Assembly: GCA_029879765.1 (NCBI GenBank)
Contig: JAOUPQ010000002.1
Coordinates: forward strand, 1 to 39,330
Direction: 5' to 3'
From: Nitrospinota bacterium
Lineage (GTDB): Bacteria; Nitrospinota_A; UBA7883
DNA length: 39,330 nucleotides
Part shown: piece after piece, positions 2,942 to 36,761 of the stretch
How the letters are laid out: the number at the start of each line of letters is the position of its first letter
Position numbering within the stretch: the first letter of the stretch is position 1
The notes under the pieces: model-generated
The model's input: the letters and a program-made list of their open reading frames with translations, nothing else
Told to the model about the DNA's origin: nothing
The model's database searches: none
Made by a program: the position numbers and the translations under genes

Positions 2942-2963
2942 GGCAAGGTGACACTAAAGCGCA

Positions 2964-2991
2964 CTGGCCGGGGCTTTTGCGCCCCGGCCAG
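2964..2991 (-). terminator. GC-rich hairpin between pilC and the PilS-like kinase (possible terminator or attenuator)
   Basis: Perfect 11-bp stem CTGGCCGGGGC / GCCCCGGCCAG with a 6-nt loop, 30 nt after the pilC stop. The T-tract on the - strand is poor (TGCGCTTTAG), so it may be only partial, or an RNA-stabilising hairpin. Confidence 0.4.
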
Positions 2992-3021
2992 CTTGCCTTT
3001 ATAAGTTTTCGATCCCTGTCT

Positions 3022-4212: not shown

Positions 4213-4237
4213 AAACAATCCTTTAGTTAATTATCTT

Positions 4238-4915: not shown

Positions 4916-4918
4916 CGT

Positions 4919-11462: not shown

Positions 11463-11612
11463 CGTTCTTATCCGCCCAGTGGTAGTTATCATTACAGCAT
11501 AAAGCTTTAGTGACCCCCGCAAACAGCCTGATTCGCAAAGGCTTACGGCCTATTATCACCAAAAGGGATACGGATTTGAAGTGTTATTTTTTTCCGGGTA
11601 TTTTTCTGTGCG

Positions 11613-13385: not shown

Positions 13386-13475
13386 TAAATCCCCCCCTCA
13401 TTTCCATAGCGCATAGCGCCATCCTCAATTAATAAACCACGCTGCCTTGCGATGAGCAAACGAAGCCTTGATATT

Positions 13476-15620: not shown

Positions 15621-15733
15621 TTTAATACTCCTTAACCTGCGCCCTATTCTGGGATTCCCGGCCCAGACTTCGCGCAACCTTCCCACATCATCCCTAATCC
15701 CAAGAGATACTATTTATAAAATTGCACACAACC

Positions 15734-15758
15734 CCACCATTCCCATATGGAATGGTGG
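15734..15758 (-). terminator. hairpin downstream of the haem-motif MCP gene
   Basis: Perfect 10-bp inverted repeat CCACCATTCC / GGAATGGTGG with a 5-nt loop, about 40 nt after the stop at 15797. Flanks are AT-rich on both sides. Confidence 0.45.
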
Positions 15759-15796
15759 ATTTATTACTTACTTAAAGACGGATTGCTCCGATAACT

Positions 15797-18040: not shown

Positions 18041-18313
18041 TTTTCTTATCCCGGATGTTTCAAAGTAAACATGGCTTGTGCGCTTTTCAGATTCTCGGCT
18101 CCCGAAGAGAGCACAACTTTCCCAAGTTTCAAAGCGACCGTCAAGGCTTGCCCCTGAAACGGCAGACGATTAATACTTGTTTTTTACAATATATACACAG
18201 ACGCCATCCGAGGTACGGAGTGCGGTTCCCTCTGACGCTGTGCCTGAATAATCCGGTTTATGCTACTTTATTTTACGTTAGTTGTAACTAAAAATATTGT
18301 TATAAAGCCAGGA

Positions 18314-18355
18314 CCGACGGGGCAGCGCGGGGTGTGGCTGGGTCCACCCCGTCGG
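18314..18355 (-). terminator. hairpin downstream of the double-Cache MCP gene
   Basis: CCGACGGGG ... CCCCGTCGG (9-bp stem, long GC-rich loop) about 30 nt after the stop at 18387. On the - strand it is followed by TCCTGGCTTTATAACAATATTTTT. Confidence 0.4.
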
Positions 18356-18386
18356 TTTGCTGGCTATATAATCCATAGTCCCCTTT

Positions 18387-21347
18387 TCAGGCGACCTTGA
18401 ATTTCGCTACCATCGTTTCCAGTTCTCCGGCGACTTTGGCCAGATCGTGCGACGAGGTGCTGACCTGTTGCGCGCTGGCGCTGGTGTCGTTGGCGCTCTT
18501 GGAAACTCCCTGAATATTGGAAGCCACTTCGTTGGCGCCCCGGGCCGCCTCGCCGGTGTTCCGGGAGACGTCGTTGGCGCCTTTGGCCACTTCCGCGATG
18601 GAGGAGGCGATGTTGTTCGCTCCGCTGGCGGCCTGGGCCACGTTGTTGGCGATCTCGGCCGCGGCACGGGTCTGCTGCTCCACGGAATGAGAGATCACCT
18701 CCACCGATTGGTTGATGGTGTTGATGATCGCCGCCACATCAGCGATCACCTTCACGGCCTGACCGGTATTGTTCTGAACACCTGCGATCCTGGAGGCGAT
18801 ATCCTCGGCGGCGTTGGCGCTCTGGTTGGCCAGCTCCTTGATCTCGTTGGCCACCACGGCAAAGCCCTTGCCGGCGTCTCCGGCGCTGGCCGCCTCGATG
18901 GTGGCGTTGAGCGCCAGCAGGTTCGTCTGCTCGGCGATCCTCTTGATCACTTCCGTAACCTCGCCGATGGCCTTGGCCGCCGTGCCCAGAGTGTTCATGG
19001 TGGAAGAGGCGTTAGAACTCATGTCCGAAGCCTGCCCCGCCACCTTGGACGCCTCCCTGGCGTTTTTGGCGATCTCGTTAATAGACGCGGTCATCTCCTC
19101 CACAGCGCTTGAGACGGCGTTCATATTCTGGCTCATCTGCTCCGCGCCGCTGCTCACGGTGCCCACGTTCATGCTCATCTCCTCCACGGCCGAGGCCATG
19201 TTGTTGATGTTGGCGGACATCTGCTCCGTTGCTCCCGCCACCGCGCCTGCCTGGCTGGTGGTTTCCTCGCTGCCGCTGGCCAGCTGGCTGGACACTGCGG
19301 AAAGCTCCTCGGAGGCCGACGCCAGAGTCCTGGAGTTGTTGGATATGGTCACGAACATCTCCTTGAGTTGATGCACCATCTCGTTTATGGAACTGGAGAG
19401 CCGCCCGATCTCGTCGTTGGATGAGACAGTGATCGACTGGGTGAAATCGCCTTTGGCGATCTCCTCCACCACTCGAACCGCATCCACCACCGGCTTGGCT
19501 ATACTCCGGCTGACAAACATCGCCGCCATTATGATCAGAACGGCGCCGATCAGCCCAAACACCAGTATGAACATGGTTATGGCGTCCACAGCATCATAGG
19601 CTTCCTTTTTGTCAACTTCCGCCAGGATGGCCCAGTTGATCTGCTCAATCCGCAATGGCGCATATGAGGAAAGAACCGGATTGCCGTTGTAATCGGTAAT
19701 TATCCCCTGGCCCGTCTTCCCGGCCAGCGCCTCCCGGGCCGCTTCGGTGTCCACGTTCCCTTTTGCGGGGTTGGCGAAGGAGGCTTTTACAGTGTGGTTC
19801 ACCTGATCCAGGAAGGAATCGGAACGCATCAGCTTGTCCGAACCCACCAGATAGGTTTCCCCGGTTTTGCCCATGCCGTCGCGCTGGTTCATCACCGAGT
19901 TGATCGCTTCCAGCGAAAGCTGCAGAGCCACTATGGTGACCACCTTGTCGTGGGAGATAACCGGCTGGGCGACGAACGCCGCCGGCTCGCCACCGCTGGG
20001 ACCGTAGGGAGCGAAATCCTCTATGCCGTATTGGCGGGTCTGCAACACCCGGCGAGTCAGAGCTCCCAGGTTCGACGAGGCCCATTTACCGTTTAGGATA
20101 TTGGTCTGATAATCCGCTTCCCGGGCGGCTGAATAGTAGATATAACCATCCGGATTAACAAGGAACAGGTCGTAATATCCATACATCTTTATGTACTGGG
20201 CGAAATATTCCGATCCGGAGGCGTCTATAGGGGAGAAAGCCTCCGCCACGTCAATCTCCGCCAGCAGGGCCCAGGTCATGTCGCCCACCTTGATGGGCGC
20301 ATAGGCGGAAAGCACCGGATTGCCATTGTAGTCCATAATCACTTCAGCGCCGGAAGACCCTGCCAGCGCTTTCCTGGCGGCGGTTGTATCCACATCCCCT
20401 TTGGTCGGATCCTTAAAGGAGGCCAGCACACTATGGTTCTTCGGATCCAGGAAGGAGTCGGACCGCATCAGCTTATCCTGCCCCACCAGGTATGTCTCTC
20501 CGGTTTTCCCCAGGCCGCTGCGCTCTGTCATTATGCTGTTTATATCCTTAAGGGAAATCTGCAGAGCCACCACACCGATAGTCTTCCCACCGGACTTTAT
20601 CGGGGCGCCAATGAACGCTGACGGCTCCCCGTTGCTGGGGGCGTATGGCTCAAAATCCTGGACTGTCACTTTTTCCCTGGCGCCGCGGAACATCTTGCCC
20701 AGGGGAGAGTCCTTCAGCCCGCCCAGCAGCAGGTTGGCCCCCAGGTCGCTTTCCCTGGATACGGTATACACCACATCGCCATCCTCGGCGATCAGGAACA
20801 GGTCGTAGTAGCCATACTCTTCCTTATACTGGGTCAGCCACTTGCCGTGTCGGGCCGCGGCGCTTTTCCACGAGGCGCCATCCACCTTCCGCCCATCGGC
20901 CATGAATGCGTTCTCAAATTCATGCATGGAATCTAGCACGGCGCCGTTGGCGGAGAGGACCGAAACATCCCCGACCCTTTCGGCAAAGTATCGCTCGATC
21001 TGGGTTTTCTTTATGTCACGAATGGCGGTGAGTTTGCGGAAAGCTTCCTCCTGCAGAGTGCCCACGGTTTCCACCAGCACACCCATATCCCCTTTGCGCT
21101 CGCCGAAGAATTTTTCGATCTGCCCTTTTTTGATAGAGCGGACAGCCTCCAGGTTGTTGAACGCCTGGTTCTCCAATGCGTCGCTGGCGCTCTTCCAGGT
21201 GAAATATCCCAGGATTCCAAACGGGATAAGCCCCACAGCCAGGAACGCAGCCACCAGTTTTTTGCCAAGGGTAAGGCCCCCCTGCTTCCCATTCTGCGCC
21301 GACGATCCCCTTCCAGGGGTGTATGCAACGCTATTTTTAGTACTCAT
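18387..21347 (-). CDS. methyl-accepting chemotaxis protein with two tandem Cache-type periplasmic modules
   Basis: AGGAGAGG lies upstream of the ATG. The sensor contains two copies of a ~200-aa unit (YGYYDLFL...[21 protein letters not shown]...[12 protein letters not shown]...W.LLAE.D), typical of Cache domains. TM, HAMP ([10 protein letters not shown]) and an MCP signalling domain follow. Confidence 0.9.
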
Positions 21348-21375: not shown

Positions 21376-21873
21376 TCATTTTTGCTCAAAAGTTTTAAGA
21401 AAACTTCTGGCGTTCAATATAACCAGAAGATCCTTCTCCAGCTTGCACACCCCTACAACCAGGTTCCGGTTCTTCCAACGATCCTCCTGCGCCGCTTCCG
21501 CGTCATCCTGGGCGCCATACTCCTCGATATCCTCAGAGCCAACCTCCACGATATCGCCTATCTTGTCCACCAGCGCCCCAAACGGCTCCCCGATATTCTG
21601 TTTGAATATCACCACCCGGCTTTCATGGTCTGGATCCTTCTGGGCAAAGCCGAGAAGAGTCCTAAGATCCAGCACCAGATGTATCTGGCCCCGGATATTC
21701 ACATATCCCCGCACTTCCCTGGGGGCATGAAATATCCTGGTAAATCCCACTTCGGTGTTGATCTCCTTCACGTCCTGGATATCCACACCGAACAGCCTAT
21801 TGTTCAGGCGGAAAGTGCAAAGCTGGATTTTTCTTTCCGTTTCCACTTCCGCCACTATCGATTGCTTACTCAT
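21376..21873 (-). CDS. cheW: chemotaxis coupling protein CheW
   Basis: Single CheW-like domain (LCTFRLNNRLFGVDIQDVKEI..., VNIRGQIHLVLDL). The ATG at 21873 is 9 nt after GGAGG and overlaps the cheA stop by 8 nt. The track's GTG at 21882 abuts the RBS. Confidence 0.9.
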   Translation of the reverse strand: MSKQSIVAEVETERKIQLCTFRLNNRLFGVDIQDVKEINTEVGFTRIFHAPREVRGYVNIRGQIHLVLDLRTLLGFAQKDPDHESRVVIFKQNIGEPFGALVDKIGDIVEVGSEDIEEYGAQDDAEAAQEDRWKNRNLVVGVCKLEKDLLVILNARSFLKTFEQK

Positions 21874-24800
21874 TGTCATCACCCTCCACGCTCTGGCTGG
21901 TTAAGGCCTTGTTCAAAAGCTCCGCCACCGACAGCAGAAACTCGTCCTTCTCCAATTTGATCTCCGCCCTGGTGTATCCTGCCCCTTCCGCGGCGGCCCG
22001 TTCTTTTTCCAGATTTTCCGGGGAGACCAGCGCCAGGGCAGGCAGATGGTTTTGTCGACCGCCGCCCCTGACCGCCATGATAAAATCCAGGCCCTCCTGC
22101 CCCATGGAAGCCACATCACAAACCAACGCGTCGAAACTCTCGTCGTTCACCCGGGCCAGGGCCTCTTCCACTGTGGATGCGCCGGCCACTTCATATCCTT
22201 CGCTGTGCAGATAGCGCCGCACCAGCACTTTCATGAAGGGATCCTCCACCACGGCCAGGATTCTGGGCAGCCTGCTCCCTTTCATCATGGAATCCTTGCG
22301 CAACCTTTCATCCAGCAGCCACTTGTTCTCGGACATATCCACCATCCGGTATACATCCGGGAAAATGGTGAGCCTGTTGCGCAAAATCGCCGTGCCCAGA
22401 ATTCCGTCTTCCATATAGCTCTCCTCGTTCAGGGTCGAGGGGGCTTCTTCCGTATCCAGCAACCTGGAGATCAGGATCCCCACCGGTCGGCTCGTGTGTT
22501 TTGGCAAAAGCAGGAACATCTCCTCATCCTCCTGGCATTCGGAGACTTTTATCAGCTTGCTGAGGGTTATGAGCTGGGTGGAAACTCCATCTATGGTGAT
22601 AAACCGGTCGCCCCCGAGCTTTTCCACCGACTTAAGGGCGATTCTCTCTATCCTTTTTATCAGCGACAGAGCGATGGCAAACTGCTCCTCCTTGCCATAC
22701 TCGAAGAGCAGCACTGTATGGGTGTCCGACTCGGTGTCGGCGGCGGTATCCTCGATCTCCTCGTCGCCCCTTCCTTCCGTGGCGATCCCGGTTTGCCGGG
22801 CGATCCCCTGGGCGTCCAGGATCAGGGCCACCTTGCCATCGCCCATGACCGTGGCGCCGGCATAGCAACCGATATCCTTCACCGCCGGGTGCATCGGCTT
22901 GACCACGATCTCCTCTGTGCCGATTATCTTGTCTATTATCAGGCCGAACTTGCTGCCGCCGGCCTTGAGCACGCCGAAGTTCAATGATCCCCCCTTCATC
23001 CTGGCGGATTCGGAGCCAGTCTCTATGACGATGGGGTCGTTTTCCGAGGCGCCAGACCGAAACTCGTCTTCAAGCACCTTGTTCAGGCGCACCATGGAAA
23101 GGAGCCTGTTCCGCAGGCGGTAGACTTCCCTGTCGCCGGCGATTTCGATTTTCTTTTTCACATCCTCGTCATACAGGCACACCAATTCCTCCACATTCAC
23201 CTGGGGAATGGCGTATCGATCCTCCCCCATCTGCACGATAAGACATGGAATGATGGCCAGAGTCAGAGGGAGCCGCAGGTGCATGGACACACCCTGGCCT
23301 TCCACCGAATCTATATCGAAGGTGCCTCCCAGTTCCTCCACCCCCGTCTTCACCACATCCAGCCCCACGCCGCGGCCGGACATATCGGTCACCTTGTCCG
23401 CAGTGGAAAAACCGGCCTGAACTGTGAGGTACAGGATCTCTTTTTCTGTCATTTGCGACAGTTCCTCGGCGGTTTTCATCCTTCTGGAAATGGCTTTTTG
23501 CTTTATCTTTTCCAGGCTGACTCCCCGCCCATCGTCCTTGATGACGATGTTTATCTGGCCCCCTTCGTGATAGGCGTTAAGCTGGATATGGCCGGTTTCG
23601 TTCTTCCCTTTTTCTTTTCTCTCCTCCGGAGTTTCAATTCCGTGGTCGCAGGAGTTGCGCACAAGATGCGTCAGAGGGTCGGCCAGCGCCTCGAGGATGG
23701 TCTTGTCCAGTTCCACGTCCGCGCCCTGGATATCCACCTCTATCTTTTTCCCCAATTGGCGGTTTAGCTCGCGAATGACCCTGGGAAACTTGTTGAATAT
23801 ATTACCGATAGGTTGCATCCGGGTGGCCATGATGCTTTCCTGGATCTCCGTGGTGACCACGTCCAGCCGCTGGGATATGGCCCTGGAGACAGGGTCGGAC
23901 TTGTCCACCGATCTTATCTGCTGGTTGCGCACCAGCACAAGCTCGCCCGCCAAAGTCATCAGCTTGTCTATGACAGATACGTTCAGCCGAATGGTCTCGT
24001 TCTGATCCTTTCCACTCCTCGGGATTCCCAGGATGCGCTCCTCATGTTCATCCCTGGAAAGCTCCTCATTCGCCTGGGGCGCCTTCTCCAGGGTGGTCAC
24101 CGGCGACACCCTGGCTTCTGTAAACTGGTCCACTATTTTTTCCTCCTGCAGGCTTTCTTCAAAGTCCGTCATTTCCGAAATATCCTCAAATGGCTGGGTA
24201 TCCACAAGTTTTTTGACAGTTGGCTCAGCCTTGGGGGCCGACCGGGCAAAGGTTTTCAACTCCACGATATTCCCTTCCGTAAGACCTGTGACACCTTTCA
24301 CCAGATCCTTTTCGATGCTGGTGGCATACACCACATCGCAGAACAGAGGCTTTTTGGGAAGGCCTTCCCGCAGATCCTCCACAGAAAACTTGATGTTGGT
24401 ATCCAGGATTTTGCCCGCTTCATTAAGCTCCTTCATCAGGGCTGTGGGTGTCTTTCCCGCGGCGCTGGCCAGCTGGGTCAGGTCATACCTTAGAAGATAG
24501 ATAAACTTGCACGAATCAGGCACCTCCCTCATTATCATGTCTGTCAGCTGATACTCACCCTGCTCCATGGTGATGACCGACACCGGGCTTTCCTTCTTCT
24601 TCTGCCCGCCGCTCCTTGCCTCATTGAGCAGGGCCTGCAACGAAACATCACCCACGGGAGGGGGAGCATGGGGCGTGGCCGCTTCTTTTTTCTCTTTTTC
24701 CTTTGTGGGGGGATTGAATTTGATTACGGTATCCTCCGTGACCATCTCCTGGGCCTGGGAAACCGGCTTTATATGCTTTTCGATGCTGGCGACCAATTCA

Positions 24801-25150
24801 TCCACCGGTATCTTATTGCTGTTCTTGATATCCTCCAGCATGGTGTTGATCATATCCACACCCTTGAAAAGCGGATCCACAACTTCACTGTCAGGCCGGA
24901 CCTCCCCCCCGCGAATCAGCGAGAGCAACGTCTCCATCACATGGGCCAGATCCGCCAGCTTGATGAAACCGAGGAATCCGGCCGATCCTTTTACCGTATG
25001 GATGGCCCTGAAAACCTTGTTTATCAGATCCTGGTCCAGATCGTCGGACATCTTCTCCAGCGCCAGAAGATCCCCTTCCACCGAGGCTATGTGCTCCTTG
25101 GCCTCGGCAACGAATTCTTCAACAATGGCTTCGTCGAATTGCATCATCAT
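21866..25150 (-). CDS. cheA: hybrid chemotaxis histidine kinase CheA (Hpt, long linker, dimerisation, HATPase, two CheW-like domains, C-terminal receiver)
   Basis: Hpt is AIHTVKGSAGFLG. Kinase boxes are DPLTHLVRNSCDHGIE, DDGRGV and GRGVGLDVV. The two CheW-like segments are CLIVQMGEDRYAIP... and TVLLFEYGKEEQFAIAL.... The receiver is RILAVVEDPF...DALVCDVA. GGGAGGGAA precedes the ATG. Confidence 0.9.
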   Translation of the reverse strand: MMMQFDEAIVEEFVAEAKEHIASVEGDLLALEKMSDDLDQDLINKVFRAIHTVKGSAGFLGFIKLADLAHVMETLLSLIRGGEVRPDSEVVDPLFKGVDMINTMLEDIKNSNKIPVDELVASIEKHIKPVSQAQEMVTEDTVIKFNPPTKEKEKKEAATPHAPPPVGDVSLQALLNEARSGGQKKKESPVSVITMEQGEYQLTDMIMREVPDSCKFIYLLRYDLTQLASAAGKTPTALMKELNEAGKILDTNIKFSVEDLREGLPKKPLFCDVVYATSIEKDLVKGVTGLTEGNIVELKTFARSAPKAEPTVKKLVDTQPFEDISEMTDFEESLQEEKIVDQFTEARVSPVTTLEKAPQANEELSRDEHEERILGIPRSGKDQNETIRLNVSVIDKLMTLAGELVLVRNQQIRSVDKSDPVSRAISQRLDVVTTEIQESIMATRMQPIGNIFNKFPRVIRELNRQLGKKIEVDIQGADVELDKTILEALADPLTHLVRNSCDHGIETPEERKEKGKNETGHIQLNAYHEGGQINIVIKDDGRGVSLEKIKQKAISRRMKTAEELSQMTEKEILYLTVQAGFSTADKVTDMSGRGVGLDVVKTGVEELGGTFDIDSVEGQGVSMHLRLPLTLAIIPCLIVQMGEDRYAIPQVNVEELVCLYDEDVKKKIEIAGDREVYRLRNRLLSMVRLNKVLEDEFRSGASENDPIVIETGSESARMKGGSLNFGVLKAGGSKFGLIIDKIIGTEEIVVKPMHPAVKDIGCYAGATVMGDGKVALILDAQGIARQTGIATEGRGDEEIEDTAADTESDTHTVLLFEYGKEEQFAIALSLIKRIERIALKSVEKLGGDRFITIDGVSTQLITLSKLIKVSECQEDEEMFLLLPKHTSRPVGILISRLLDTEEAPSTLNEESYMEDGILGTAILRNRLTIFPDVYRMVDMSENKWLLDERLRKDSMMKGSRLPRILAVVEDPFMKVLVRRYLHSEGYEVAGASTVEEALARVNDESFDALVCDVASMGQEGLDFIMAVRGGGRQNHLPALALVSPENLEKERAAAEGAGYTRAEIKLEKDEFLLSVAELLNKALTSQSVEGDDNE

Positions 25151-25157
25151 TCCCTCC

Positions 25158-25892
25158 CTAGGCCACGTTTACAGTTATGATTTCGTCGATTTTGATCAGG
25201 CGGAAGAGGCTGTGGATATCTTTGTTGGTGTTCATAAGCTTCAGCTTTCCCTTCTTGCTCTTCCCCTCCAACATCTTGGTGAAGCTGATCAGCACGCTTA
25301 TCCCTATGGAGTCGATATCATTCACATTTTTCATGTCGATCTTCACCTGATACTTCTTCTCGTCCAGCGCCCGGATGAGCAACAGACGAAGCTTGTCCGC
25401 CACGTTGGCCGTTATATCCCCGGTTGGGATAATATGGATAGAGTTCTTTCTATCCTCGGTTTTAAAATCCGTCTCCACCAGATCACCCAAAAAGGCGGTG
25501 ACCCGGTTCCCCTTCTCGTTAAACTCCACCTCGTCCGCCAGGGTGTTCACAAGCCCGAACCCCCGATGACGCTCCTGCTGGGGATCACCCGGGATTTTCC
25601 AGTTTATTGACTCGTAGTCGAATCCGGCTCCGCTGTCTTCCACGGTGATGCGGAACCTGGCGCCCCCCAGATATTCGATCTCGCATTCCACGGTCAAGGT
25701 TGGGTCGCCCCCGCAACCGTGTTCGATGGCGTTGATCAAAAGCTCCCTGATCACCACCTTGAGCCGGATATTTTCCGCTGCGCCATACCGCCCCAGGAAA
25801 GCCTTCGATTCCTGGACAACCCGATCCACCACCCGCATTTCCGCCGATGAACGGAACAGGATAATATCTTCACCTTTTTCAACTGCGAACAT
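25158..25892 (-). CDS. fusion of an RsbW/SpoIIAB-like anti-sigma serine kinase (N-terminal) with a STAS anti-anti-sigma domain (C-terminal)
   Basis: Kinase N-box is VIRELLINAIEHG and G-boxes are VEDSGAGFD and GFGLVNTLADEV. The STAS segment is IHIIPTGDITANVADKLR...IDMKNVNDIDSIGISVL, with the phosphorylatable Ser context DS.G. The ATG at 25892 has GGAGG 6 nt upstream. The track's longer ORF to 25970 would overlap the upstream gene by 92 nt. Confidence 0.75.
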   Translation of the reverse strand: MFAVEKGEDIILFRSSAEMRVVDRVVQESKAFLGRYGAAENIRLKVVIRELLINAIEHGCGGDPTLTVECEIEYLGGARFRITVEDSGAGFDYESINWKIPGDPQQERHRGFGLVNTLADEVEFNEKGNRVTAFLGDLVETDFKTEDRKNSIHIIPTGDITANVADKLRLLLIRALDEKKYQVKIDMKNVNDIDSIGISVLISFTKMLEGKSKKGKLKLMNTNKDIHSLFRLIKIDEIITVNVA

Positions 25893-27144
25893 TTTCAACC
25901 TCCGTGGGAATTTCCATGGCCAACAACAAGGCGTCGTCGGAAAACTTCCTGTGGCAAAAGTTTGAGACATCGTCCCACACCTTGCCCACCATCTCTTCTA
26001 GCAATAGTTTTTTATGCAGGCTGATAAACCTAAGCAGCCCCGCCTCCGCCAGACGTTTTCTCGATCCGGTCCTACCATCCACCTGGCTGGCGTTCAGCAA
26101 TCCATCGGTGTGGATAAAAATCCGCTCCGTGGATTTGAAGGAAAATTCCACCCGCTCAAAATTCAATCCGCCACGCCCGCCCAGCGCCGGACCTCCGCTG
26201 GAGAGCCGCCTTACAGAGCCCGCTACGGGATTGAATATCATCACCCCGCTGTGCCCCGCGCTCACAACTTCACCTTTCATGGTGTCAAGGTTCAGCTTTA
26301 TATATAAAGCGGTGGCCATCCGGCCGAAATCGAAGGTATCGGCGAATTTATCGTTTATTGACTTCATCAGCGCTTCCCCGGCCCCAGGCTTTCCGGAATG
26401 CTGATCGAAGAGCGCTTTTATGAACACCGTGTGATACGAGGCGCCCAGATCATGGCCAGCCACATCCGCCACCAGCGCCTCCACTCCATCCTCCACATTC
26501 CTGGCCTCGAAATAATCGCCGCCCAGGCTCCCCAGGGGCGAATAGCGGTACGCCACTTTCACTTTCAACCCTTCCGGATTGAACTTGACTATCTGGTTGT
26601 ACGAATTCACCGCGCTCTCCATCTGGGTTCGCAGGTATTCATAATCCCGTTTGAACAAGTCGGCGTCTCGCATGGACACGGAGGAGGAGCGAGCCAGTTC
26701 CCGCTGGGTATGGCGCCCTTTTGTGATCCACTTGATATTTTCCAAAAGCTCTTCCACATCCACCGGTTTTTCCAGGAAGTCGTCACAGCCTATCCGCATC
26801 AGGTCCACCATCATCTCTTTGTCACCATATCCTGTGATCGCTATCACAGGCGTATAGATCCCCCTGCGTCGCATCTCCCATATCAACTCCCTGCCATTCA
26901 ACCCGGGCATCTGGATGTCCGTAATGATCAATGTGTATGGCAATCCGATTGACCACGAATCGACGATCTTCTCCAAAGCCTCCACTCCATCCAGGCAAAC
27001 AGAAGTGCGAAACTCCGCCACGTTAAGAGCGATCTCCAGAGAAAAAGCCAGATCCTTCTCGTCATCGACAATCAGAATTCTTTCCATAAGAAGCTCAGCA
27101 AAAATAATTCGGAAACACACACCCGACATCTCAGATACTTGCAT
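25879..27144 (-). CDS. response-regulator receiver fused to a PP2C/SpoIIE-type serine phosphatase (RsbU-like)
   Basis: Receiver is ILIVDDEKD...TLIITDIQMPGLNG...VIAITGYGD...FLEKP. PP2C motifs are LGGDYFEA, VADVAGHDLGASY, IFIHTDGL and SDDALLLAMEI. The start is uncertain: 27144 has GGGGGTGG upstream, while 27087 begins MERILIVDD. Confidence 0.85.
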   Translation of the reverse strand: MQVSEMSGVCFRIIFAELLMERILIVDDEKDLAFSLEIALNVAEFRTSVCLDGVEALEKIVDSWSIGLPYTLIITDIQMPGLNGRELIWEMRRRGIYTPVIAITGYGDKEMMVDLMRIGCDDFLEKPVDVEELLENIKWITKGRHTQRELARSSSVSMRDADLFKRDYEYLRTQMESAVNSYNQIVKFNPEGLKVKVAYRYSPLGSLGGDYFEARNVEDGVEALVADVAGHDLGASYHTVFIKALFDQHSGKPGAGEALMKSINDKFADTFDFGRMATALYIKLNLDTMKGEVVSAGHSGVMIFNPVAGSVRRLSSGGPALGGRGGLNFERVEFSFKSTERIFIHTDGLLNASQVDGRTGSRKRLAEAGLLRFISLHKKLLLEEMVGKVWDDVSNFCHRKFSDDALLLAMEIPTEVENVRS

Positions 27145-27361
27145 TTTTCATACCACCCCCTAAAAAGAATGAAATACATACTATATACCTTTGTATTTAC
27201 GTGTGTTGCTCCCTCGGGCAAAATATCGTCCTCTTGGGTAAATGGGTGAGACAATGGATGACATTATTCATAACCCATCGATAACATCCCTATTAACAAC
27301 CACATACCACCACCCACTCAAGACAAAAGTGAATTACTTCTCAGGTTTTTACAGAGTCCAT

Positions 27362-28801
27362 TCACCCCTTTGCTTCCCTGTTCAAGCGCTTGTTCAACGC
27401 CGCCCGGGAAAGACCCAGCATCTCCGCGGCGATGGTCTGGTTGGAGCCGGCTCGGCGCATGGCCTCACCTATCAGATATTTCTCCACTTCCTTCAATGTG
27501 GGAAAGAGTCCCGTCTCTTGTTGTGGCAGATACAACCTTCCTCCATTGTTGGAGGCGGCCTTTTTCTCCTCGGAAACGGGGGAGCTTTTCCGGTTTCTTG
27601 CGAGTTTTTCCCTTATCCCTATGATCGACAGGATCTTCCCCTTGTGCATGCTCACCGCGTCCTGGATCAGGCTTTGCAACTCGCGCACGTTGCCGGGAAA
27701 ATGGTAATTGGACAGCAGGGTATATAATTCCACGGGAGGGGTTGGCTTTTTCTTTCCCAGGTCCATGGCGCCCAGTTCCAGGAAATGATCGATCAGCGGC
27801 GGTATATCGTCCAGCCTCTCGCGCAAAGGGGGTATATGGATATGATGGGTCTGCAGCCTGTAGAACAGGTCACTTCGAAACTCCCCTTTTTCCTGGGCCT
27901 GATGGACATCTTTCTGGGTAGCGGTGACTATCCTGGCCAGGCTCATCTTCGGCAAGTCCGAACCCAGGGGATAATACTCCCTCTCCTGCAAAAGCCGCAG
28001 AAGCTTCACCTGGGAAGCCTCGGTCAAATCCCCTATCTCGTCCAGAAACAAGGTTCCCCCCGCAGCCCTCTCGATGAGCCCCTTGCGGTCCCGATCCGCC
28101 CCGGTATACGCCCCTTTCTGGTGGCCGAACAAGGTGTCGGAGAACATATTGTCATCCAGCCCGGCGGTGTTCACCGGCACGAATTCCCCTTTTACCTTGC
28201 TGGCCAGATGGATCGATTTGGCGATCAGCTCCTTGCCCACTCCTGTCTCCCCGGTTATCAGCACCGGGAAGGATGATTTTGCGATAGACTCCACATATTG
28301 GAAGATTGCTCGCATGACCCTGTCCTTGGAGACGATTTCCCGGAAGGTCTCTGGATTTTCCAGATCATCCGAAAGAAGATAGTGCTTCAGGGAACTGTTT
28401 TCCCTGCGCAGCCCCCCAAACTCCAAAGCCCTGGTGACCGTGGAGGTGAAGCGGCTGCCATCCACTGGCTTTTGCAGGTAATCGTAGGCGCCATTGCGCA
28501 TGCAATCCACGGCAATATCCACCTCGCCCACTCCAGTCATGATGATCACCGGAATCTCCGGCCATCGGGCGGCGATCTTATCCAGCAGTTCCCTGCCCCC
28601 CACATGGGGCATCAAAAGATCCATCACCACCAGCTCTACAGGAGTGGAGGAAAGAAACGGGATAACCTCCCTGCTGTCCGATATTCTCACCTGGTTGGAA
28701 ACTCCACAACCATACAGAAGCGCCGAGCAACTCTCCAGGTGGTAAGTCTCGTCATCCACAATCAGCACAGGAAGCTTGGGATTCAATTCCACTTTATTCA
28801 C
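27362..28801 (-). CDS. NtrC-family sigma-54-dependent response regulator (REC, AAA+, Fis-type HTH)
   Basis: REC is VLIVDDE...ELVVMDLLMP. Walker A is ITGETGVGKE, the sigma-54 contact loop is GAYTGA, and the C-terminal HTH is NQTIAAEMLGLSRAALNKRL. The GTG start overlaps the kinase TGA (GTGA). Confidence 0.9.
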   Translation of the reverse strand: MNKVELNPKLPVLIVDDETYHLESCSALLYGCGVSNQVRISDSREVIPFLSSTPVELVVMDLLMPHVGGRELLDKIAARWPEIPVIIMTGVGEVDIAVDCMRNGAYDYLQKPVDGSRFTSTVTRALEFGGLRRENSSLKHYLLSDDLENPETFREIVSKDRVMRAIFQYVESIAKSSFPVLITGETGVGKELIAKSIHLASKVKGEFVPVNTAGLDDNMFSDTLFGHQKGAYTGADRDRKGLIERAAGGTLFLDEIGDLTEASQVKLLRLLQEREYYPLGSDLPKMSLARIVTATQKDVHQAQEKGEFRSDLFYRLQTHHIHIPPLRERLDDIPPLIDHFLELGAMDLGKKKPTPPVELYTLLSNYHFPGNVRELQSLIQDAVSMHKGKILSIIGIREKLARNRKSSPVSEEKKAASNNGGRLYLPQQETGLFPTLKEVEKYLIGEAMRRAGSNQTIAAEMLGLSRAALNKRLNREAKG

Positions 28802-31800
28802 TTGCTCTCTCCATTGGAAGCGGGAAATTCCAGGGTTACGGTGGTGCCGGAGCCTGGTTTCGAGTCAAACCGCATGATTCCGCCATGCTCCCTGACTATC
28901 CCGAAGGATACCGAAAGGCCAAGGCCGGTGCCCCCTTCCTCCCGCTTGGTGGTATAGAACGGATCGGTTATTTTCCCCAGGTTCTCCTCGGCGATGCCGC
29001 ATCCCTGGTCGAGCACCCGCACCCGCACCGTACCCGTTTTCTGGTCATACCCGGTCTCCACCTCCACTTTTTTGTCCATATCCTCCAGCGATTGCAAAGC
29101 GTTGCTGATAAGGTTTATCATCACCTGCTCCATCTCAATCTGGCTTCCCAACACCGTAGGCAATCCTTGGCAGAGACTGGTGACGAAATTGCGCGTATGC
29201 CTTTTGATCAGGCTTGCCAGCAGAAGAGCCGATGACTCCACCACATTGTTCATGTCCACTGGCCGTTTTTTGGCGCCTGGCTCCACCCTGGCGAAATTCT
29301 TGAGCTTTTCCACGATAATCTGAATGCGCTTCGACCCTTCCGATATGCCGTTCAAAAGTTTTGGCGCGGCCTCCAGCGCCTGCCCCATTGGCATCCCCCC
29401 CAACATCAGACCTTCGTTGTCTTCCAGGCTTTTTCTTATCAGCAAAGCTCCCTGTTCCCAAATCTTTTTCAACAAAGGCGCATTGACGGCGATAAAGCTG
29501 TTGGGATTGTTGATCTCGTGGGCCACCCCCGCCACCAATATCCCCAGCGACTTCATCTTGTCCGCATGAATCAGTTGCAGCTGGCGCACCCTGGCCTGTT
29601 CCTCGGCCTGTTTGCGCTCCGTCACATCCAGAAGGCTCAACAGCAGACCGAACACTCTCCCGTCATCTTCCTTGAGAGGCTGAACACTCACATCCCAGTA
29701 AGAGACTCCCCGTTCCGGGTTGGCCTCATAGATAAATGGCTTGGCGTAACATATATAAGCCTCCCCGGTGCGCGCCACTTCCTCGAATATCCGTTCGTTT
29801 TCCTCATTGGGATACAGCCGGAAATGGTTCTTGCCAGGGAAAAAATCCACATCTTTTCCATCCGCCTCGGCGTAGGCCTTGTTCACCTTGATGAAGTTCA
29901 TCTCTTTATCCAGCAGAGCCAGCTTCATATGGGTGGTGGAGAATAGACGCTCGAACAGAGCCTCGCTGTCCCGCACCGCTTTCTCCGCCGCCAGACGCCT
30001 GGAATCCGCCCGGCTGGCCTCCAGCATGCTGGCGCAAGTGGTGATGAAGGGCTCCAGAAACTCTCTCATGCTATCGCTGTATCCCCCCGGCCGATTGGCA
30101 AGGCCGATTATTCCCACCAGATCCCCACCCCTTTTCAGCGGCACACCCATAAAGCTTTTCAGCGCAGGATGCCCATGGGGAAGGCCGGAAGATCTGGGGT
30201 CTTTGGCAGGATCTTCGCTGATCACATATTCCCCGGTGGTCAATACGGCGCCGTATAACGAATCCAGCTTCCGGAATTCCATGCCTGGCTCAAACCCGTT
30301 TTGCATAAATTTTTTGGCCTTCTTGTCCCCCGACATAATGGAAATAGCATGGGTCTTTATAAAAGGATTTCCGGCCTCGTCATAGTGCGCTTCACCTATG
30401 AATCCGAATTCGCTCCTGGACAGGGATATTATCCGATGGAGCAATTTCTCGAACATCAGCTCCGCCTTCTCGCCAAGGATGAAGCGCGTTTGCGCCTGGC
30501 TGATCGCCTCCAGTATCTCCTGGTTCTGACACAGTTCCTCTTCCGCTCTTATCTGCTCCGTAATCTCTCTGGATATCCGCAGCACCGCCGTCACCTCCCC
30601 CTCCGGGCCGCTGATTGGATTTAGAATGCTCTCCCACCATCGCTCGCTATCGCCTTTGCTCTGGGTCATGTATCGCACATGGGACACCTCGCCCCGGGCG
30701 GCTTTTTTAAGAGAACCCTCCATCAGTGGTCGAAACTCTGCCCCCAGCAAGTCCATGCAGGTCTTCCCTTTCACCTCCACTATACTGCCATATCCATTCA
30801 GTTCCAGACCTCGCTGATTCATGAACAGGAAATATCCGTTCACGTCCAGAAGACATATGCAGTCGTCGGAGCTTTCCACCAGCGCCCGGTAGCGCTCTTC
30901 GCTGTCGCGCAGCGCTTCCTCGGCTTTCTTTCTTTCCCTAAGATCGCGAAACACCCCGAGAATCACTTTCTTCCCGTTGATCATATATCGCTGCCCGGTA
31001 ACCTCCACGGGCGCCGTGGTCCCGTCCGCCAGCATAATATTGTTTTCAACCGGGATTGTCGGGTCCACATCCTCCCCACGACTTTTGAACCGATCCCGAG
31101 CCAGCGCTCCTTCTTCCGGCAGATGGAGCCGGGACTGATGCATGCCGGCGAATTCCTTCCTCTGTCTTTTAAACAGCTTCTCCGCCGCCCGGTTTGCCTG
31201 CAACAGGATCCCGGTATCCGCCTCCGCCAGCAGCATGGCATCCGGTGAATTTTCAAACAACATCCGGAACCGCTCTTCGCTCTCCTGCATGGCCTCCCGC
31301 GCCAGCTTGGTCTCCGTCACATCCCTCTTCACCGCCAACATCACTTCTCCATATTTTGCGTCCTGATATCGGGTGACGGTGGTATAGGTCCAAAAGGGAG
31401 TCCCATCCTTCTTGACGTTGAATATTTCGCCGCTCCATTCCCCCTTATTCTTCAAAGTTGTGGATATATGCGTGGCAATCTCCAAGGGCGTATGTTCCGT
31501 GGGCATATTTTGAATGGAGACATGTTTACCGATCATCTCTCCATGGTCGTAACCGAACATCTGCTCGAATTTCGGGTTGGTATGGACGATCACATCGTCC
31601 GACATACGGATCATCTGCACCCCTTCGGCGATGTTCTCCATGATCGCCGCCTGGGTCCGAAGCTCCGCCTCGGCCATTTTGCGCTCGGTGATATCCTGGA
31701 ACACTGTCTGCGCCGCTGGCTTGCCTCCGAACTCCACCGGCGAAGACATCGACTCGACAGTTATCGATTTGCCATCCTTTCTTTTGAACTGGAACTCGGT

Positions 31801-36395: not shown

Positions 36396-36761
36396 TTATC
36401 CCAAATTTTTCAGAGCCCACAGGGTGGGGCCCAGCCAAACCTGTATCGCGAAAACCAGCACATGCGCCCCGGCCATGATGTACCCCGCCAGCGCCGCGGG
36501 CGTGCGGGAGCGCTCCAGCCCCACCGTGGTCCAGTATACTCCCCCGGCGAAGGAAAAGCCCGCCACGGAGAGCGGATTCATGTCCATGTAAAATGGGTAG
36601 GCGGTCGCCACGTCATTCATGGCGGCATAGGCGCGCAACCCTTCCCTAAGGTACCATCCAAGACCCAGCAGATAGAATCCCAGGGAAAGATATTTATACG
36701 CCCCCGGGTGAAAAGCCTTCGGATCCCCCGGCCCGCCCCCTTCCGCGCCGAAAAGGCTCAT
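36396..36761 (-). CDS. small integral membrane protein, unknown function (121 aa)
   Basis: The ATG at 36761 forms an ATGA overlap with the stop of the upstream gene. Three to four hydrophobic segments (YLSLGFYLLGLGWYL, LSVAGFSFAGGVYW, YIMAGAHVLVFAIQVWLG). I recognised no family. Confidence 0.55.
   Translation of the reverse strand: MSLFGAEGGGPGDPKAFHPGAYKYLSLGFYLLGLGWYLREGLRAYAAMNDVATAYPFYMDMNPLSVAGFSFAGGVYWTTVGLERSRTPAALAGYIMAGAHVLVFAIQVWLGPTLWALKNLG

What the first reader, a model, noticed from the sequence alone, without database searches (positions are those of the whole stretch)
21376..27144. Chemosensory operon whose dedicated output looks like a partner-switching module (receiver-PP2C plus RsbW-STAS), with no CheY
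Seen: five genes are packed as one unit, namely receiver-PP2C, the RsbW-like kinase/STAS fusion (14-nt overlap), CheA-receiver (7-nt gap), CheW (8-nt overlap) and an MCP (28-nt gap). Four more MCPs, CheB and CheR follow on the same strand. The window has no single-domain CheY, CheZ/CheC/CheX or flagellar gene. Established: receiver-PP2C, RsbW and STAS proteins form partner-switching cascades (RsbU/V/W; HsbR/HsbA). Che-like pathways with non-motility outputs exist (Wsp, Myxococcus Che3). Inference: CheA~P probably controls the PP2C through its receiver. That would set the phosphorylation state of the STAS serine (NDIDSIG) and so release or capture an unknown RsbW target. I am not aware of an experimentally characterised Che pathway with this output.
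Basis: partly seen in the sequence, partly recalled or inferred. Interest (0 to 1): 0.75.

Follow-up and report, generated by a model that had tools for sequence, protein, structure and literature searches.

The report
CheY-less chemosensory operon with Ser-phosphoswitch module
A chemotaxis-like sensing operon in an uncultured Nitrospinota bacterium lacks CheY and instead carries a receiver-controlled protein phosphatase and a fused serine kinase/STAS protein; the cassette recurs in many phyla, looks uncharacterised, and resembles published systems.

Summary
On the minus strand, REC-PP2C (25879-27087), an RsbW-like kinase fused to STAS (25158-25892), CheA-REC (21866-25150), CheW, five MCPs, CheB and CheR form one tightly packed unit. 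The window has no CheY.

New here:
- The pair is followed directly by cheA in 36 of 41 distinct related loci, from about ten phylum-level groups and the cultured Desulfonema magnum.
- Catalytic residues are invariant: receiver Asp, PP2C Asp motifs, kinase N and G1 boxes, STAS Ser195 and CheA His51.
- A conserved sigma-54 promoter (27155-27140) with two upstream repeats precedes REC-PP2C. It is probably driven by the adjacent PAS kinase and NtrC-type regulator.
- In sister CheA clades the gene before cheA is another receiver-effector (HD-GYP, cyclase), which marks an output slot.
- A STAS-only gene often sits directly before cheA. It often lacks the serine, which recalls the CheA-binding STAS protein CheS.

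Best reading: CheA controls the PP2C through its receiver, and the PP2C and the fused kinase set Ser195 phosphorylation. The downstream partner is unknown; no target is encoded in cis.

Gammaproteobacterial F7 clusters with RsbU/RsbV-like genes (CrsR/CrsA to RpoS) are a published precedent. I class this as a new variant of a known kind. Interest: moderate to high.

The parts
28798..34173 (-). 1791-aa sensor histidine kinase with about 9 PAS and 2 GAF domains; probable partner of the sigma-54 regulator
   Evidence: Pfam hits to PAS families, GAF_2, HisKA and HATPase_c. It overlaps the next gene by 4 nt. A HK at this position, next to the sigma-54 regulator, recurs in L004, L006, L026, L037, L090 and L116.
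27362..28801 (-). NtrC-type sigma-54-dependent response regulator (REC, AAA+ and Fis-type HTH domains)
   Evidence: Pfam Sigma54_activat 3.4e-56, Response_reg and HTH_8. NCBIfam ntrC and AtoC models match but below their cut-offs. It is adjacent in 9 of 34 distinct fusion loci.
27318..27333 (-). Upstream conserved repeat 1 (TTCACTTTTGTCTTGA); candidate enhancer-binding-protein site
   Evidence: Conserved block in the intergenic alignment of three Nitrospinota relatives. Its function is inferred.
27244..27263 (-). Upstream conserved repeat 2 (TGTCATCCATTGTCTCACCC); candidate enhancer-binding-protein site
   Evidence: Conserved block carrying the same TCAC..GTCTCA core as repeat 1. Its function is inferred.
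27140..27155 (-). Sigma-54 type -24/-12 promoter, TGGTATGAAAAATGCA
   Evidence: GG-N10-GC spacing, 9 of 12 consensus positions, 68 nt upstream of ATG 27087. It is identical apart from 1-2 bases in L008, L009 and L090. Such sites occur in 7 of 9 loci with an adjacent sigma-54 regulator and in 1 of 25 without (Fisher p = 5e-5).
25879..27087 (-). REC-PP2C (SpoIIE/RsbU-type Ser phosphatase with N-terminal receiver, phospho-acceptor Asp57), 402 aa
   Evidence: Pfam Response_reg 5e-23 and SpoIIE 4.6e-28. The receiver Asp, Thr and Lys and the GGD, ADVxGHD, TDG and DD motifs are invariant or nearly so in 29 loci. The closest solved receiver-PP2C protein is P. aeruginosa RssB, 3eq2.
25158..25892 (-). 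RsbW/SpoIIAB-like Ser kinase (residues 1-135) fused to an RsbV/SpoIIAA-like STAS domain (residues 145-244); phosphorylatable Ser195 is the codon at 25310-25308
   Evidence: Pfam HATPase_c_2 and STAS. phmmer against the PDB aligns DIDSIG with the conserved DS(T)G motif of RsbV; I identify that serine as the phosphorylation site from memory. The AF2 model (pLDDT 84.8) best matches SpoIIAB and RsbV by Foldseek. Invariant in 13 homologues: E50, N54, D86, G88, G90, R110, G111, D194 and S195.
21866..25150 (-). Hybrid CheA: P1 (His51), P3, P4, two CheW-like domains and a C-terminal receiver (Asp1012)
   Evidence: Pfam. His51, the N, G1 and G2 boxes, and the receiver Asp and Lys are invariant in relatives.
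21376..21882 (-). CheW
   Evidence: Pfam CheW 1.9e-23.
8514..21347 (-). Five MCP genes (18387-21347 dCache_1; 15797-18040 Tll0287-like; 13476-15686; 11613-13385; 8514-11522 HK_sensor_dom_bact)
   Evidence: Pfam MCPsignal and HAMP in all five. By arithmetic on those Pfam coordinates, about 323-324 aa follow the HAMP domain in all five.
7213..8334 (-). CheB (receiver plus methylesterase)
   Evidence: Pfam; NCBIfam CheB above its cut-off.
6318..7220 (-). CheR methyltransferase; last gene of the unit
   Evidence: Pfam CheR and CheR_N. A sigma-70-like promoter at 6230-6201 follows, ahead of pilT.

Best explanation
This is a chemotaxis-like pathway that does not steer a flagellar motor. Its readout is the serine-phosphorylation state of a self-contained kinase-STAS protein.

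Proposed mechanism (inferred unless marked as shown):
1. The five MCPs, with CheW, control autophosphorylation of CheA on His51.
2. CheA passes phosphate to three receivers. One is its own C-terminal receiver, acting as a sink or relay. The second is CheB, which with CheR gives methylation-based adaptation. The third is the receiver of the PP2C phosphatase (Asp57).
3. The fused RsbW-like domain keeps phosphorylating Ser195 of its own STAS domain, in cis or across a dimer. The CheA-controlled PP2C removes that phosphate.
4. Ser195 phosphorylation decides whether the STAS domain is docked on its kinase domain or free. That in turn decides which partner the protein engages.
5. The partner is not encoded in the operon. 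Candidates are a sigma factor held by the RsbW domain, an HsbA/SypA-type STAS target, or CheA itself.
6. In this lineage the whole operon is transcribed from a sigma-54 promoter. The promoter is probably activated by the adjacent giant PAS/GAF kinase and NtrC-type regulator.

Shown here: gene content, co-inheritance, conserved catalytic residues and the conserved promoter.
For: - Domain content.
- Tight packing, with overlaps and gaps of at most 28 nt through the first MCP, and no excess of terminator-like sites inside the unit.
- REC-PP2C, fusion and CheA-REC occur in that order in 36 of 41 distinct loci. These come from Nitrospinota, Planctomycetota (including Ca. Anammoxibacter), Desulfobacterales (including cultured Desulfonema magnum CP061800.1), SAR324, Verrucomicrobiota, Spirochaetales and others, at only 33-46% identity.
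- Clustering of all ORFs in 34 loci finds no other conserved gene besides CheW, MCP, CheB, CheR and sometimes the HK and sigma-54 regulator.
- Catalytic residues are invariant.
- Ser195 aligns with the DS(T)G motif of RsbV that I recall as its phosphorylation site. It is invariant wherever the kinase is fused, but replaced by P, A, V or Y in 13 of 22 kinase-less STAS relatives. This fits the idea that the fused kinase phosphorylates it.
- Related CheAs have REC-HD-GYP or REC-cyclase in the same 5' position. This is the pattern expected of an exchangeable output regulator.
- Where the pair lacks CheA, another Hpt or histidine kinase lies nearby: an Hpt-CheR fusion and REC-HK directly downstream in L031, and a TPR-HK about 3.5 kb downstream on the other strand in L010.
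- Sigma-54 promoter and its association with the regulator.
Against: - No biochemical evidence exists, and phosphotransfer specificity cannot be computed here.
- In the only tested analogue, the V. vulnificus F7 cluster, a bacterial two-hybrid assay found no CheA2-RsbU interaction (PMC10107281).
- No target is conserved in cis.
- A CheY or a sigma factor elsewhere in the genome cannot be excluded from a 39-kb window.
- The AF2 monomer model leaves the inter-domain arrangement uncertain (pTM 0.56), so docking in cis is not shown.
- STAS-only genes without the Ser lie next to cheA in relatives. This shows that the STAS domain has a role tied to CheA that does not need phosphorylation.
Confidence: 0.5

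Rival explanations
1. Feedback rather than output. The STAS domain is a CheS-like accessory that binds CheA and tunes its kinase activity or its choice among receivers. The fused kinase and the CheA-controlled PP2C make that binding depend on phosphorylation. This would add a serine-phosphorylation memory loop to the array, and the true output would be an orphan regulator elsewhere or the CheA receiver.
For: - In the wider CheA clade the gene directly 5' of cheA is a STAS-only protein in about 20 of 80 metagenome loci and in L093. It sits beside other evident outputs: REC-cyclase, or a sigma-54 regulator plus a REC.
- Thirteen of 22 of these proteins lack the Ser, so the STAS-cheA link is older than phospho-regulation and independent of it.
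- L169 shows the unfused state, in the order PP2C, RsbW, STAS.
- S. meliloti CheS is a STAS-only che-operon protein that binds CheA and alters CheY1 handling (reviewed in PMC12654446).
Against: - The PP2C/fusion pair also occurs without cheA: L010, L007/L016 and L031.
- If the only receiver-effector in the operon served feedback, the pathway would have no encoded output.
- Sequence relatedness to CheS was not tested, because no CheS sequence was available.
- About 29 of 80 related cheA loci have no STAS upstream.
Confidence: 0.22
2. A CrdS/CrdA-type design. The NtrC-like sigma-54 regulator upstream is the real output of the Che pathway, jointly controlled by the giant PAS kinase and by CheA, as in M. 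xanthus Che3. The PP2C/fusion pair would be an accessory branch.
For: - A HK plus an NtrC-like regulator lie directly upstream of a CheY-less che operon with a CheA-REC hybrid. This is the same layout as Che3, where CrdA is the output and CheA3 destabilises CrdA~P (PMC3147164).
- HK and sigma-54 regulator recur next to this CheA clade, including STAS-only loci L093, L127 and L150.
Against: - Only 9 of 34 distinct fusion loci have an adjacent sigma-54 regulator, so it is not a core part of the cassette.
- Where it is present, a -24/-12 promoter sits in front of REC-PP2C (7 of 9 loci against 1 of 25). That is explained more simply by transcriptional control of the operon.
Confidence: 0.12
3. The PP2C receiver is fed by another kinase, for example the adjacent PAS kinase or an unlinked one, and not by CheA. 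The partner-switch genes are merely co-transcribed with the che genes. The che system signals to a CheY encoded elsewhere.
For: - The analogous F7 RsbU showed no two-hybrid interaction with CheA2 (PMC10107281).
- The pair is found beside non-Che kinases in L010 and L031.
Against: - Linkage to cheA is far stronger (36 of 41 loci) than to any other kinase.
- No CheY is conserved in any of the loci.
- Alternative receiver-effectors occupy the same slot in sister clades.
Confidence: 0.1

Closest known systems
Ancestral (stage 1/2) F7 chemosensory clusters of gammaproteobacteria: S. oneidensis Che1 with CrsR/CrsA, V. cholerae cluster III, V. vulnificus che2 with RsbU/RsbV (PMC7184735, PMC9855816, PMC10107281)
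   Same: A che cluster that also encodes a receiver-controlled PP2C Ser phosphatase, an RsbW-type kinase domain and a STAS antagonist. It is proposed to serve a stress response rather than motility. The link from CheA to the phosphatase is unproven there too.
   Different: - Those clusters keep a CheY and CheD.
- Their CheA has no receiver domain in the gene lists of the cited papers.
- They use Aer2-type 36H receptors.
- The kinase domain is fused to the phosphatase (REC-PP2C-HATPase) and STAS is a separate protein.
- Here the kinase is fused to STAS, the phosphatase stands alone, CheA is a receiver hybrid with two CheW-like domains, and there is no CheY.
Classical partner-switching modules (B. 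subtilis RsbU/RsbV/RsbW and SpoIIE/SpoIIAA/SpoIIAB; P. aeruginosa HsbR/HsbA)
   Same: The same three activities are present: a PP2C phosphatase, a GHKL Ser kinase and a STAS substrate with the DS(x)G serine. The closest matches by sequence and fold are SpoIIAB and RsbV.
   Different: Kinase and substrate are one polypeptide. No sigma factor or other target is encoded nearby. The input is a receiver domain encoded directly 5' of cheA.
M. tuberculosis Rv1364c (PAS-PP2C-anti-sigma kinase-STAS multidomain protein; mentioned in PMC12143880)
   Same: The kinase domain and its STAS substrate lie on the same chain.
   Different: In Rv1364c the phosphatase and a PAS sensor are also fused, and there is no Che context. 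Sequence relatedness was not tested here.
P. aeruginosa Wsp (ACF class) and M. xanthus Che3-CrdS/CrdA (PMC3147164)
   Same: A CheY-less Che pathway with a CheA-receiver hybrid, CheB and CheR. Its output is a receiver-effector protein encoded in or beside the cluster. As in Che3, a HK plus an NtrC-like regulator lies adjacent.
   Different: The effector here is a PP2C acting on a kinase-STAS fusion, not a GGDEF domain or a transcription factor. Class membership by CheA phylogeny was not determined.
S. meliloti CheS (STAS-only protein of the che operon that binds CheA; PMC12654446)
   Same: A STAS domain is encoded at the 5' side of cheA. STAS-only versions occupy exactly this position in relatives of the window's CheA.
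   Different: [quoted passage not shown] Here the STAS is fused to a kinase and keeps the phospho-serine. Homology to CheS was not tested.

Membership tests
Chemosensory (Che) pathway core | CheA with a P1 phospho-His, dimerisation domain, HATPase domain and CheW-like domain | tested here: met
   Pfam Hpt, H-kinase_dim, HATPase_c and CheW. His51 and the N, G1 and G2 boxes are invariant in 29 relatives.
Chemosensory (Che) pathway core | CheW, MCP signalling domain, and CheB and CheR for adaptation | tested here: met
   Pfam; NCBIfam CheB above its cut-off.
Chemosensory (Che) pathway core | Single-domain CheY in the cluster | tested here: not met
   No further receiver ORF of at least 60 aa in the window. 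No CheY is conserved across 34 related loci. The rest of the genome was not seen.
Non-motility (ACF-like) Che pathways such as Wsp and Che3 | CheA-receiver hybrid plus a receiver-effector output encoded in the cluster, in place of CheY | tested here: met
   CheA has a C-terminal REC with invariant Asp1012 and Lys1065. REC-PP2C lies two genes upstream of cheA, with the fusion gene between them. REC-HD-GYP occupies the position directly 5' of cheA in sister clades, and in L111 a REC-cyclase precedes a STAS-only gene and cheA.
Non-motility (ACF-like) Che pathways such as Wsp and Che3 | Phylogenomic class assignment of CheA (MiST / Wuichet-Zhulin HMMs) and MCP heptad class | not testable with these tools
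   No class HMMs were available. The architecture with two CheW domains plus a REC is reported as typical of F5 (PMC10782961). The best annotated match in the plasmid collection is an Azospirillum cheA-cheW-cheY-cheB-cheR cluster at 36-37% identity. The alignment to the T. maritima receptor 2CH7 (44H by my recollection) leaves the MCP heptad class unresolved.
Partner-switching system (RsbU/V/W type) | PP2C phosphatase with intact metal-binding Asp motifs | tested here: met
   The GGD, ADVxGHD, TDG and DD motifs are essentially invariant in 29 loci; one locus has Arg in place of the His.
Partner-switching system (RsbU/V/W type) | RsbW/SpoIIAB-type GHKL Ser kinase with an N box and G boxes | tested here: met
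   HATPase_c_2 7.3e-17. E50, N54, D86-x-G88-x-G90 and R110-G111 are invariant. Best fold matches are SpoIIAB structures 1TID, 1TIL and 1L0O. The first Gly of the G2 box is absent and the ATP lid is modelled with low confidence, so activity is inferred.
Partner-switching system (RsbU/V/W type) | STAS antagonist with a phosphorylatable Ser | tested here: met
   D194-S195 is invariant and aligns with the conserved DS(T)G motif of RsbV; its identity as the phosphorylation site is from memory.
Partner-switching system (RsbU/V/W type) | Kinase and antagonist are separate proteins that exchange partners, with a sequestered target (sigma factor) in the module | tested here: not met
   Kinase and STAS are one 244-aa chain. 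No sigma factor or other conserved partner lies within 10 kb in 34 loci. The whole genome was not searchable.
CrsR/CrsA or HsbR/HsbA subtype | Three-domain REC-PP2C-HATPase regulator plus a separate STAS protein | tested here: not met
   The REC-PP2C protein ends after the PP2C domain (402 aa). The HATPase_c_2 domain is on the STAS protein.
CheS-type STAS accessory of CheA | STAS protein encoded at the 5' side of cheA that binds CheA | tested here: inconclusive
   Position is met: a 7-nt gap to cheA here, and STAS-only genes at the same position in about 20 relatives. Binding and sequence homology to CheS could not be tested.
M. xanthus Che3/CrdS/CrdA design | HK plus NtrC-like regulator next to a CheY-less che operon, with CheA acting on the NtrC-like regulator | tested here: inconclusive
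   The layout is met in the window but in only 9 of 34 fusion loci. Action of CheA on the regulator is not testable here.

The most novel reading that the evidence does not exclude
The STAS domain may be an ancestral, CheA-coupled component of a large clade of CheA-receiver chemosensory systems, analogous to CheS. In this subclade it would have been turned into a phospho-switch by fusing a Ser kinase to it and recruiting a CheA-controlled PP2C. A chemosensory array would then carry a second covalent memory or feedback layer, serine phosphorylation, on top of receptor methylation. Its state could also gate an as yet unknown cellular target.
Probability: 0.2. Interest if true: 0.8.

Novelty: new variant of a known kind. 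Interest (0 to 1): 0.55.

Why it matters
Chemotaxis-like pathways that control something other than swimming are common in genomes, but only a handful have a known output. This cassette is a clean case: there is no CheY, and the only effector domains in the operon form a closed kinase/phosphatase/substrate triad. It is widespread in environmentally important but poorly studied groups such as Nitrospinota, anammox Planctomycetota and sulfate reducers.

It offers a direct test of whether CheA can drive a Ser/Thr phosphorylation switch. That link has been suspected, but not shown, for the F7 clusters of Vibrio, Shewanella and Pseudomonas.

The recurrent STAS-cheA adjacency also suggests a general role for STAS proteins in chemosensory arrays, one that has gone largely unnoticed. 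Desulfonema magnum, which is cultured and has a complete genome, provides an experimental entry point.

Tried and rejected
- Cis-encoded target. I clustered all ORFs of at least 70 aa from 34 distinct loci. Only Che genes, the pair, and the HK and sigma-54 regulator are conserved, so no sigma factor or other partner emerged.
- Type IV pilus output. pilT, pilC and pilS follow cheR in the window. However, pilT has its own sigma-70-like promoter, and pil genes are not conserved next to the cassette elsewhere. Rejected as part of the unit.
- Docking of STAS on its own kinase. The AF2 monomer model gives confident domains but pTM 0.56 and no PAE, so a cis-docked state is neither shown nor excluded. 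No multimer prediction was available to test STAS-CheA binding.
- Che class. No class HMMs were available. Alignments of the MCPs to 2CH7, Tsr and PcaY are ambiguous in register. The class is left open; the CheA architecture and the best annotated relative look F5-like (PMC10782961).
- The first word-indexed search suggested the fusion is extremely rare, with 14 clusters. The exhaustive profile search corrected this to 232 clusters at E <= 1e-30, most of the roughly 120 best-scoring ones being full-length fusions.
- Papers not held, so their content is cited only through secondary sources: Wuichet & Zhulin 2010 (PMC3401578), Bouillet 2016 (PMC5207083) and Dogra 2012 (PMC3294773).
- The partial RsbW-only hits L040-L087 mostly have no che context and were not pursued.

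Full report
**Anatomy**

All relevant genes are on the minus strand. Pfam scans give the following order:
- M48 peptidase.
- A 1791-aa kinase with about nine PAS and two GAF domains (28798-34173).
- An NtrC-type sigma-54 regulator (27362-28801).
- An intergenic region of about 270 nt.
- REC-PP2C (25879-27087).
- An RsbW-like kinase fused to STAS (25158-25892, 244 aa).
- CheA with Hpt, dimerisation domain, HATPase, two CheW-like stretches and a C-terminal receiver (21866-25150).
- CheW (21376-21882).
- Five MCPs with different sensor domains (8514-21347).
- CheB (7213-8334) and CheR (6318-7220).

These are a 14-nt overlap with a GGAGG ribosome-binding site, a 7-nt gap, an 8- or 17-nt overlap, and a 28-nt gap. 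A phmmer search with the four receiver domains finds no other receiver in any frame. None of the large ORFs scanned with Pfam is a CheZ, CheC, CheX or flagellar protein. Terminator-like sites inside the unit are no more frequent than in shuffled sequence, and none lies in an intergenic gap on the coding strand. After cheR, a sigma-70-like promoter (6230-6201) precedes pilT. The pil genes are therefore a separate unit.

**Promoter and true start of the first gene**

A sigma-54 type element, TGGTATGAAAAATGCA, lies 68 nt upstream of ATG 27087 at 27155-27140. It has GG-N10-GC spacing. In an alignment with two Nitrospinota relatives whose intergenic regions have diverged (76% mean column identity), this element is a conserved island. 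Two upstream blocks are also conserved and share a TCAC..GTCTCA core (27333-27318 and 27263-27244). They are candidate binding sites for the adjacent enhancer-binding protein.

I then examined 34 distinct loci that encode the PP2C/fusion pair and have at least 2.5 kb of upstream sequence. A -24/-12-like site precedes REC-PP2C in 7 of the 9 loci with an adjacent sigma-54 regulator, and in only 1 of the 25 without one. The Fisher p-value is 5e-5. About six independent lineages contribute.

Three conclusions follow. Second, the PP2C/fusion pair and cheA share a promoter. Third, in this lineage the PAS kinase and sigma-54 regulator most simply control expression of the operon.

**Are the parts functional?**

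In 29 homologous loci the REC-PP2C protein keeps its receiver residues. The acidic pocket, the phospho-acceptor Asp (Asp57 here) and the Lys are conserved in all 29, and the Thr in 28 (Ser in one). The four PP2C metal-binding motifs GGD, ADVxGHD, TDG and DD are likewise conserved, except that one locus has Arg for the His.

CheA keeps His51 and the N, G1 and G2 boxes. In all 24 full-length sequences it also keeps the receiver Asp and Lys (Asp1012 and Lys1065).

In the fusion protein, the N-terminal domain aligns with SpoIIAB and RsbW. The C-terminal domain aligns with RsbV, and DIDSIG falls on RsbV's conserved DS(T)G motif; I know that serine as RsbV's phosphorylation site from memory. An AF2 model has a mean pLDDT of 84.8. 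Its best Foldseek matches are SpoIIAB structures for residues 1-135 and RsbV or SpoIIAA for the C-terminal part. E50, N54, D86, G88, G90, R110, G111, D194 and S195 are invariant in 13 homologues that are as little as 39% identical. The inter-domain arrangement is not resolved (pTM 0.56).

**Distribution and linkage**

A word-indexed search found only 14 clusters of the fusion. An exhaustive profile search of 1.84 billion representatives finds 232 clusters at E <= 1e-30. Most of the roughly 120 best-scoring clusters are full-length fusions of about 240-260 aa. A few are longer, and unfused RsbW-like proteins of the same subfamily also appear.

Genome hits come from MAGs of many groups: Nitrospinota (the window's group, 88-89% identity), Ca. 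Anammoxibacter and other Planctomycetota, Desulfobacterales, SAR324, Melioribacteraceae, Victivallales, Verrucomicrobia, Aminicenantes, Spirochaetales and Desulfovibrionaceae. The complete genome of cultured Desulfonema magnum also carries the cassette.

In 36 of 41 distinct loci the order REC-PP2C, fusion, cheA holds. Where the contig allows, it continues with cheW, MCP, cheB and cheR. Clustering every ORF of 34 loci shows that nothing else is conserved: no CheY, no sigma factor and no other candidate target. A Desulfobacteraceae variant extends the fusion to REC-NMT1_2-RsbW-STAS.

The few loci without cheA place the pair near other phospho-donors. In L031 an Hpt-CheR fusion and a REC-HK follow the pair directly. 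In L010 a REC-PAS protein and, on the opposite strand, a TPR histidine kinase lie within a few kb downstream.

**The slot in front of cheA**

The window's CheA type is abundant. I sampled relatives by context look-up and by a metagenome scan of 80 loci, tagging upstream ORFs with HMMs built from the PP2C and fusion alignments.
- Thirteen loci have REC-PP2C plus the fusion.
- About 20 loci have a STAS-only gene of 100-130 aa directly 5' of cheA. L093 is a further example, and L169 has unfused PP2C, RsbW and STAS in that order.
- About 29 loci have no STAS.

Other receiver-effectors occupy the neighbouring position: REC-HD-GYP (L094, L095), REC-adenylate/guanylate cyclase (L111), and a sigma-54 regulator plus a single REC (L093, L127, L150). 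Exchangeable receiver-effectors in front of a CheY-less cheA-receiver gene match the pattern known from Wsp and M. xanthus Che3. This supports reading REC-PP2C as the pathway's response regulator.

At the same time, STAS is the most constant neighbour of cheA. Thirteen of 22 kinase-less STAS proteins have lost the canonical Ser (Pro, Ala, Val or Tyr instead). Every kinase-fused form keeps it (A1). This has two implications. It is good indirect evidence that Ser195 is the substrate of the fused kinase. It also shows that the STAS domain has an older, phosphorylation-independent role tied to cheA.

**Mechanism**

The best-supported chain runs as follows. MCPs control CheA. CheA~P transfers phosphate to the PP2C receiver, and also to CheB and to its own receiver. 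PP2C activity then works against the fused kinase on Ser195, and the phospho-state of the kinase-STAS protein is the readout.

Gene content, co-inheritance, conserved chemistry and the shared promoter are shown. Phosphotransfer, cis or trans autophosphorylation, and the partner are inferred. I put 0.5 on this.

The main rival (0.22) is that the STAS domain acts back on CheA in the manner of S. meliloti CheS, a STAS-only che-operon protein that binds CheA and changes CheY1 handling (PMC12654446). The fused kinase and the PP2C would then form a feedback or memory loop. Against this, the pair exists without cheA in a few genomes, and the operon would then lack any output.

A second rival (0.12) is a CrdS/CrdA-Che3-like design, in which the NtrC-like regulator is the output (PMC3147164). 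Its presence in only 9 of 34 loci, together with the promoter evidence, makes transcriptional control the simpler reading.

A third rival (0.1) is that the PP2C receiver is fed by a non-Che kinase. One observation in its favour is that a two-hybrid test found no CheA2-RsbU interaction in V. vulnificus (PMC10107281).

**Comparison with what is known**

Published work already links che clusters to partner-switch genes. Stage 1 and 2 F7 clusters of gammaproteobacteria contain one or two anti-sigma antagonists and a serine phosphatase, and are proposed to act in stress responses (PMC7184735). [quoted passage not shown] V. vulnificus che2 lists RsbU and RsbV alongside CheY3 (PMC10107281).

The window's system differs in several tested respects.
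- There is no CheY.
- CheA is a receiver hybrid with two CheW-like domains.
- The kinase is fused to STAS rather than to the phosphatase.
- The operon is under sigma-54 control.
- It occurs outside the Proteobacteria.

A kinase and a STAS domain on one chain are also known from M. tuberculosis Rv1364c (PMC12143880), but in a different context. The CheA architecture is the one reported as typical of class F5 (PMC10782961). The best annotated match in the plasmid collection is an Azospirillum cheA-cheW-cheY-cheB-cheR cluster at 36-37% identity. Class membership and MCP heptad class could not be established with the tools at hand.

I found no paper that describes this cassette in ten full-text searches of the held library. 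That library is incomplete.

**Verdict**

The idea of a Che-linked partner switch is not new. The target need not be an RsbW client. The STAS-cheA link suggests an additional or alternative role at the array.

This is a new variant of a known kind. Interest is 0.55: it is uncharacterised, widespread and directly testable, and cultured Desulfonema magnum is a possible experimental host.

Noticed in passing
window 28798-34173 (-): A very large (1791 aa) cytoplasmic-type histidine kinase with about nine PAS and two GAF domains. A relative (L090) has a 1790-aa version. It is the probable sensor for the sigma-54 regulator that drives the che operon.
   Followed up: partly
window 1160-6115 (-): A type IV pilus gene set directly after cheR: a PilT-family ATPase, a 225-aa zinc-ribbon protein with no other family match, PilC, and a PilS-like 6TM kinase without a PilR in the window. 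It has its own sigma-70-like promoter at 6230-6201. The set is not conserved next to the cassette in other lineages.
   Followed up: partly
window 36396-37915 (-): Two overlapping ORFs (197 aa and 385 aa) without any Pfam match. They lie between LemA and an M48 peptidase on one side and a radical SAM/SPASM protein (37713-39173) on the other.
   Followed up: no
L021 5314-7521; L028 8480-10729; L032 8558-10750: Desulfobacteraceae carry a long form of the fusion, REC-NMT1_2 (ligand-binding-like)-RsbW-STAS, of 730-750 aa. It sits between REC-PP2C and cheA. This adds a second receiver and a possible small-molecule input to the switch protein.
   Followed up: partly
L111, L119, L120, L122, L125, L127, L133-L136, L138, L145, L149, L150, L158, L159, L162, L164, L165, L167, L168, L093 (gene directly 5' of cheA): STAS-only genes of 100-130 aa sit directly upstream of cheA in many relatives of this CheA clade. 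About 60% have lost the phosphorylatable Ser. This recalls the CheA-binding STAS protein CheS of S. meliloti.
   Followed up: partly
L031 8829-11533: An Aminicenantes locus has the PP2C/fusion pair followed by an Hpt-CheR fusion protein (524 aa) and a REC-HisKA-HATPase kinase instead of CheA. A PAS kinase and a sigma-54 regulator lie downstream.
   Followed up: no
L001 16984-20735: The Ca. Anammoxibacter version of the cluster has extra genes between the MCP and cheB: a 257-aa receiver protein, a 343-aa protein with no family, and a PilZ protein. A CheX follows cheB.
   Followed up: no
L094 6703-7776; L095 6837-7895: In two closely related loci (a 3.1-Mb contig and MAG GCA_021777055.1, whose organism was not shown), closely related CheA-receiver genes have a REC-HD-GYP protein (probable c-di-GMP phosphodiesterase) in the position that REC-PP2C plus the fusion occupy in the window.
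   Followed up: partly
L098-L111, L119, L120, L122, L123, L125, L137, L138, L171 (metagenome Ga0272440): A single metagenome contributes about twenty different contigs with this CheA clade. They include the fusion type, the STAS-only type and a type with no STAS. This suggests heavy paralogy or many carriers in one community.
   Followed up: no
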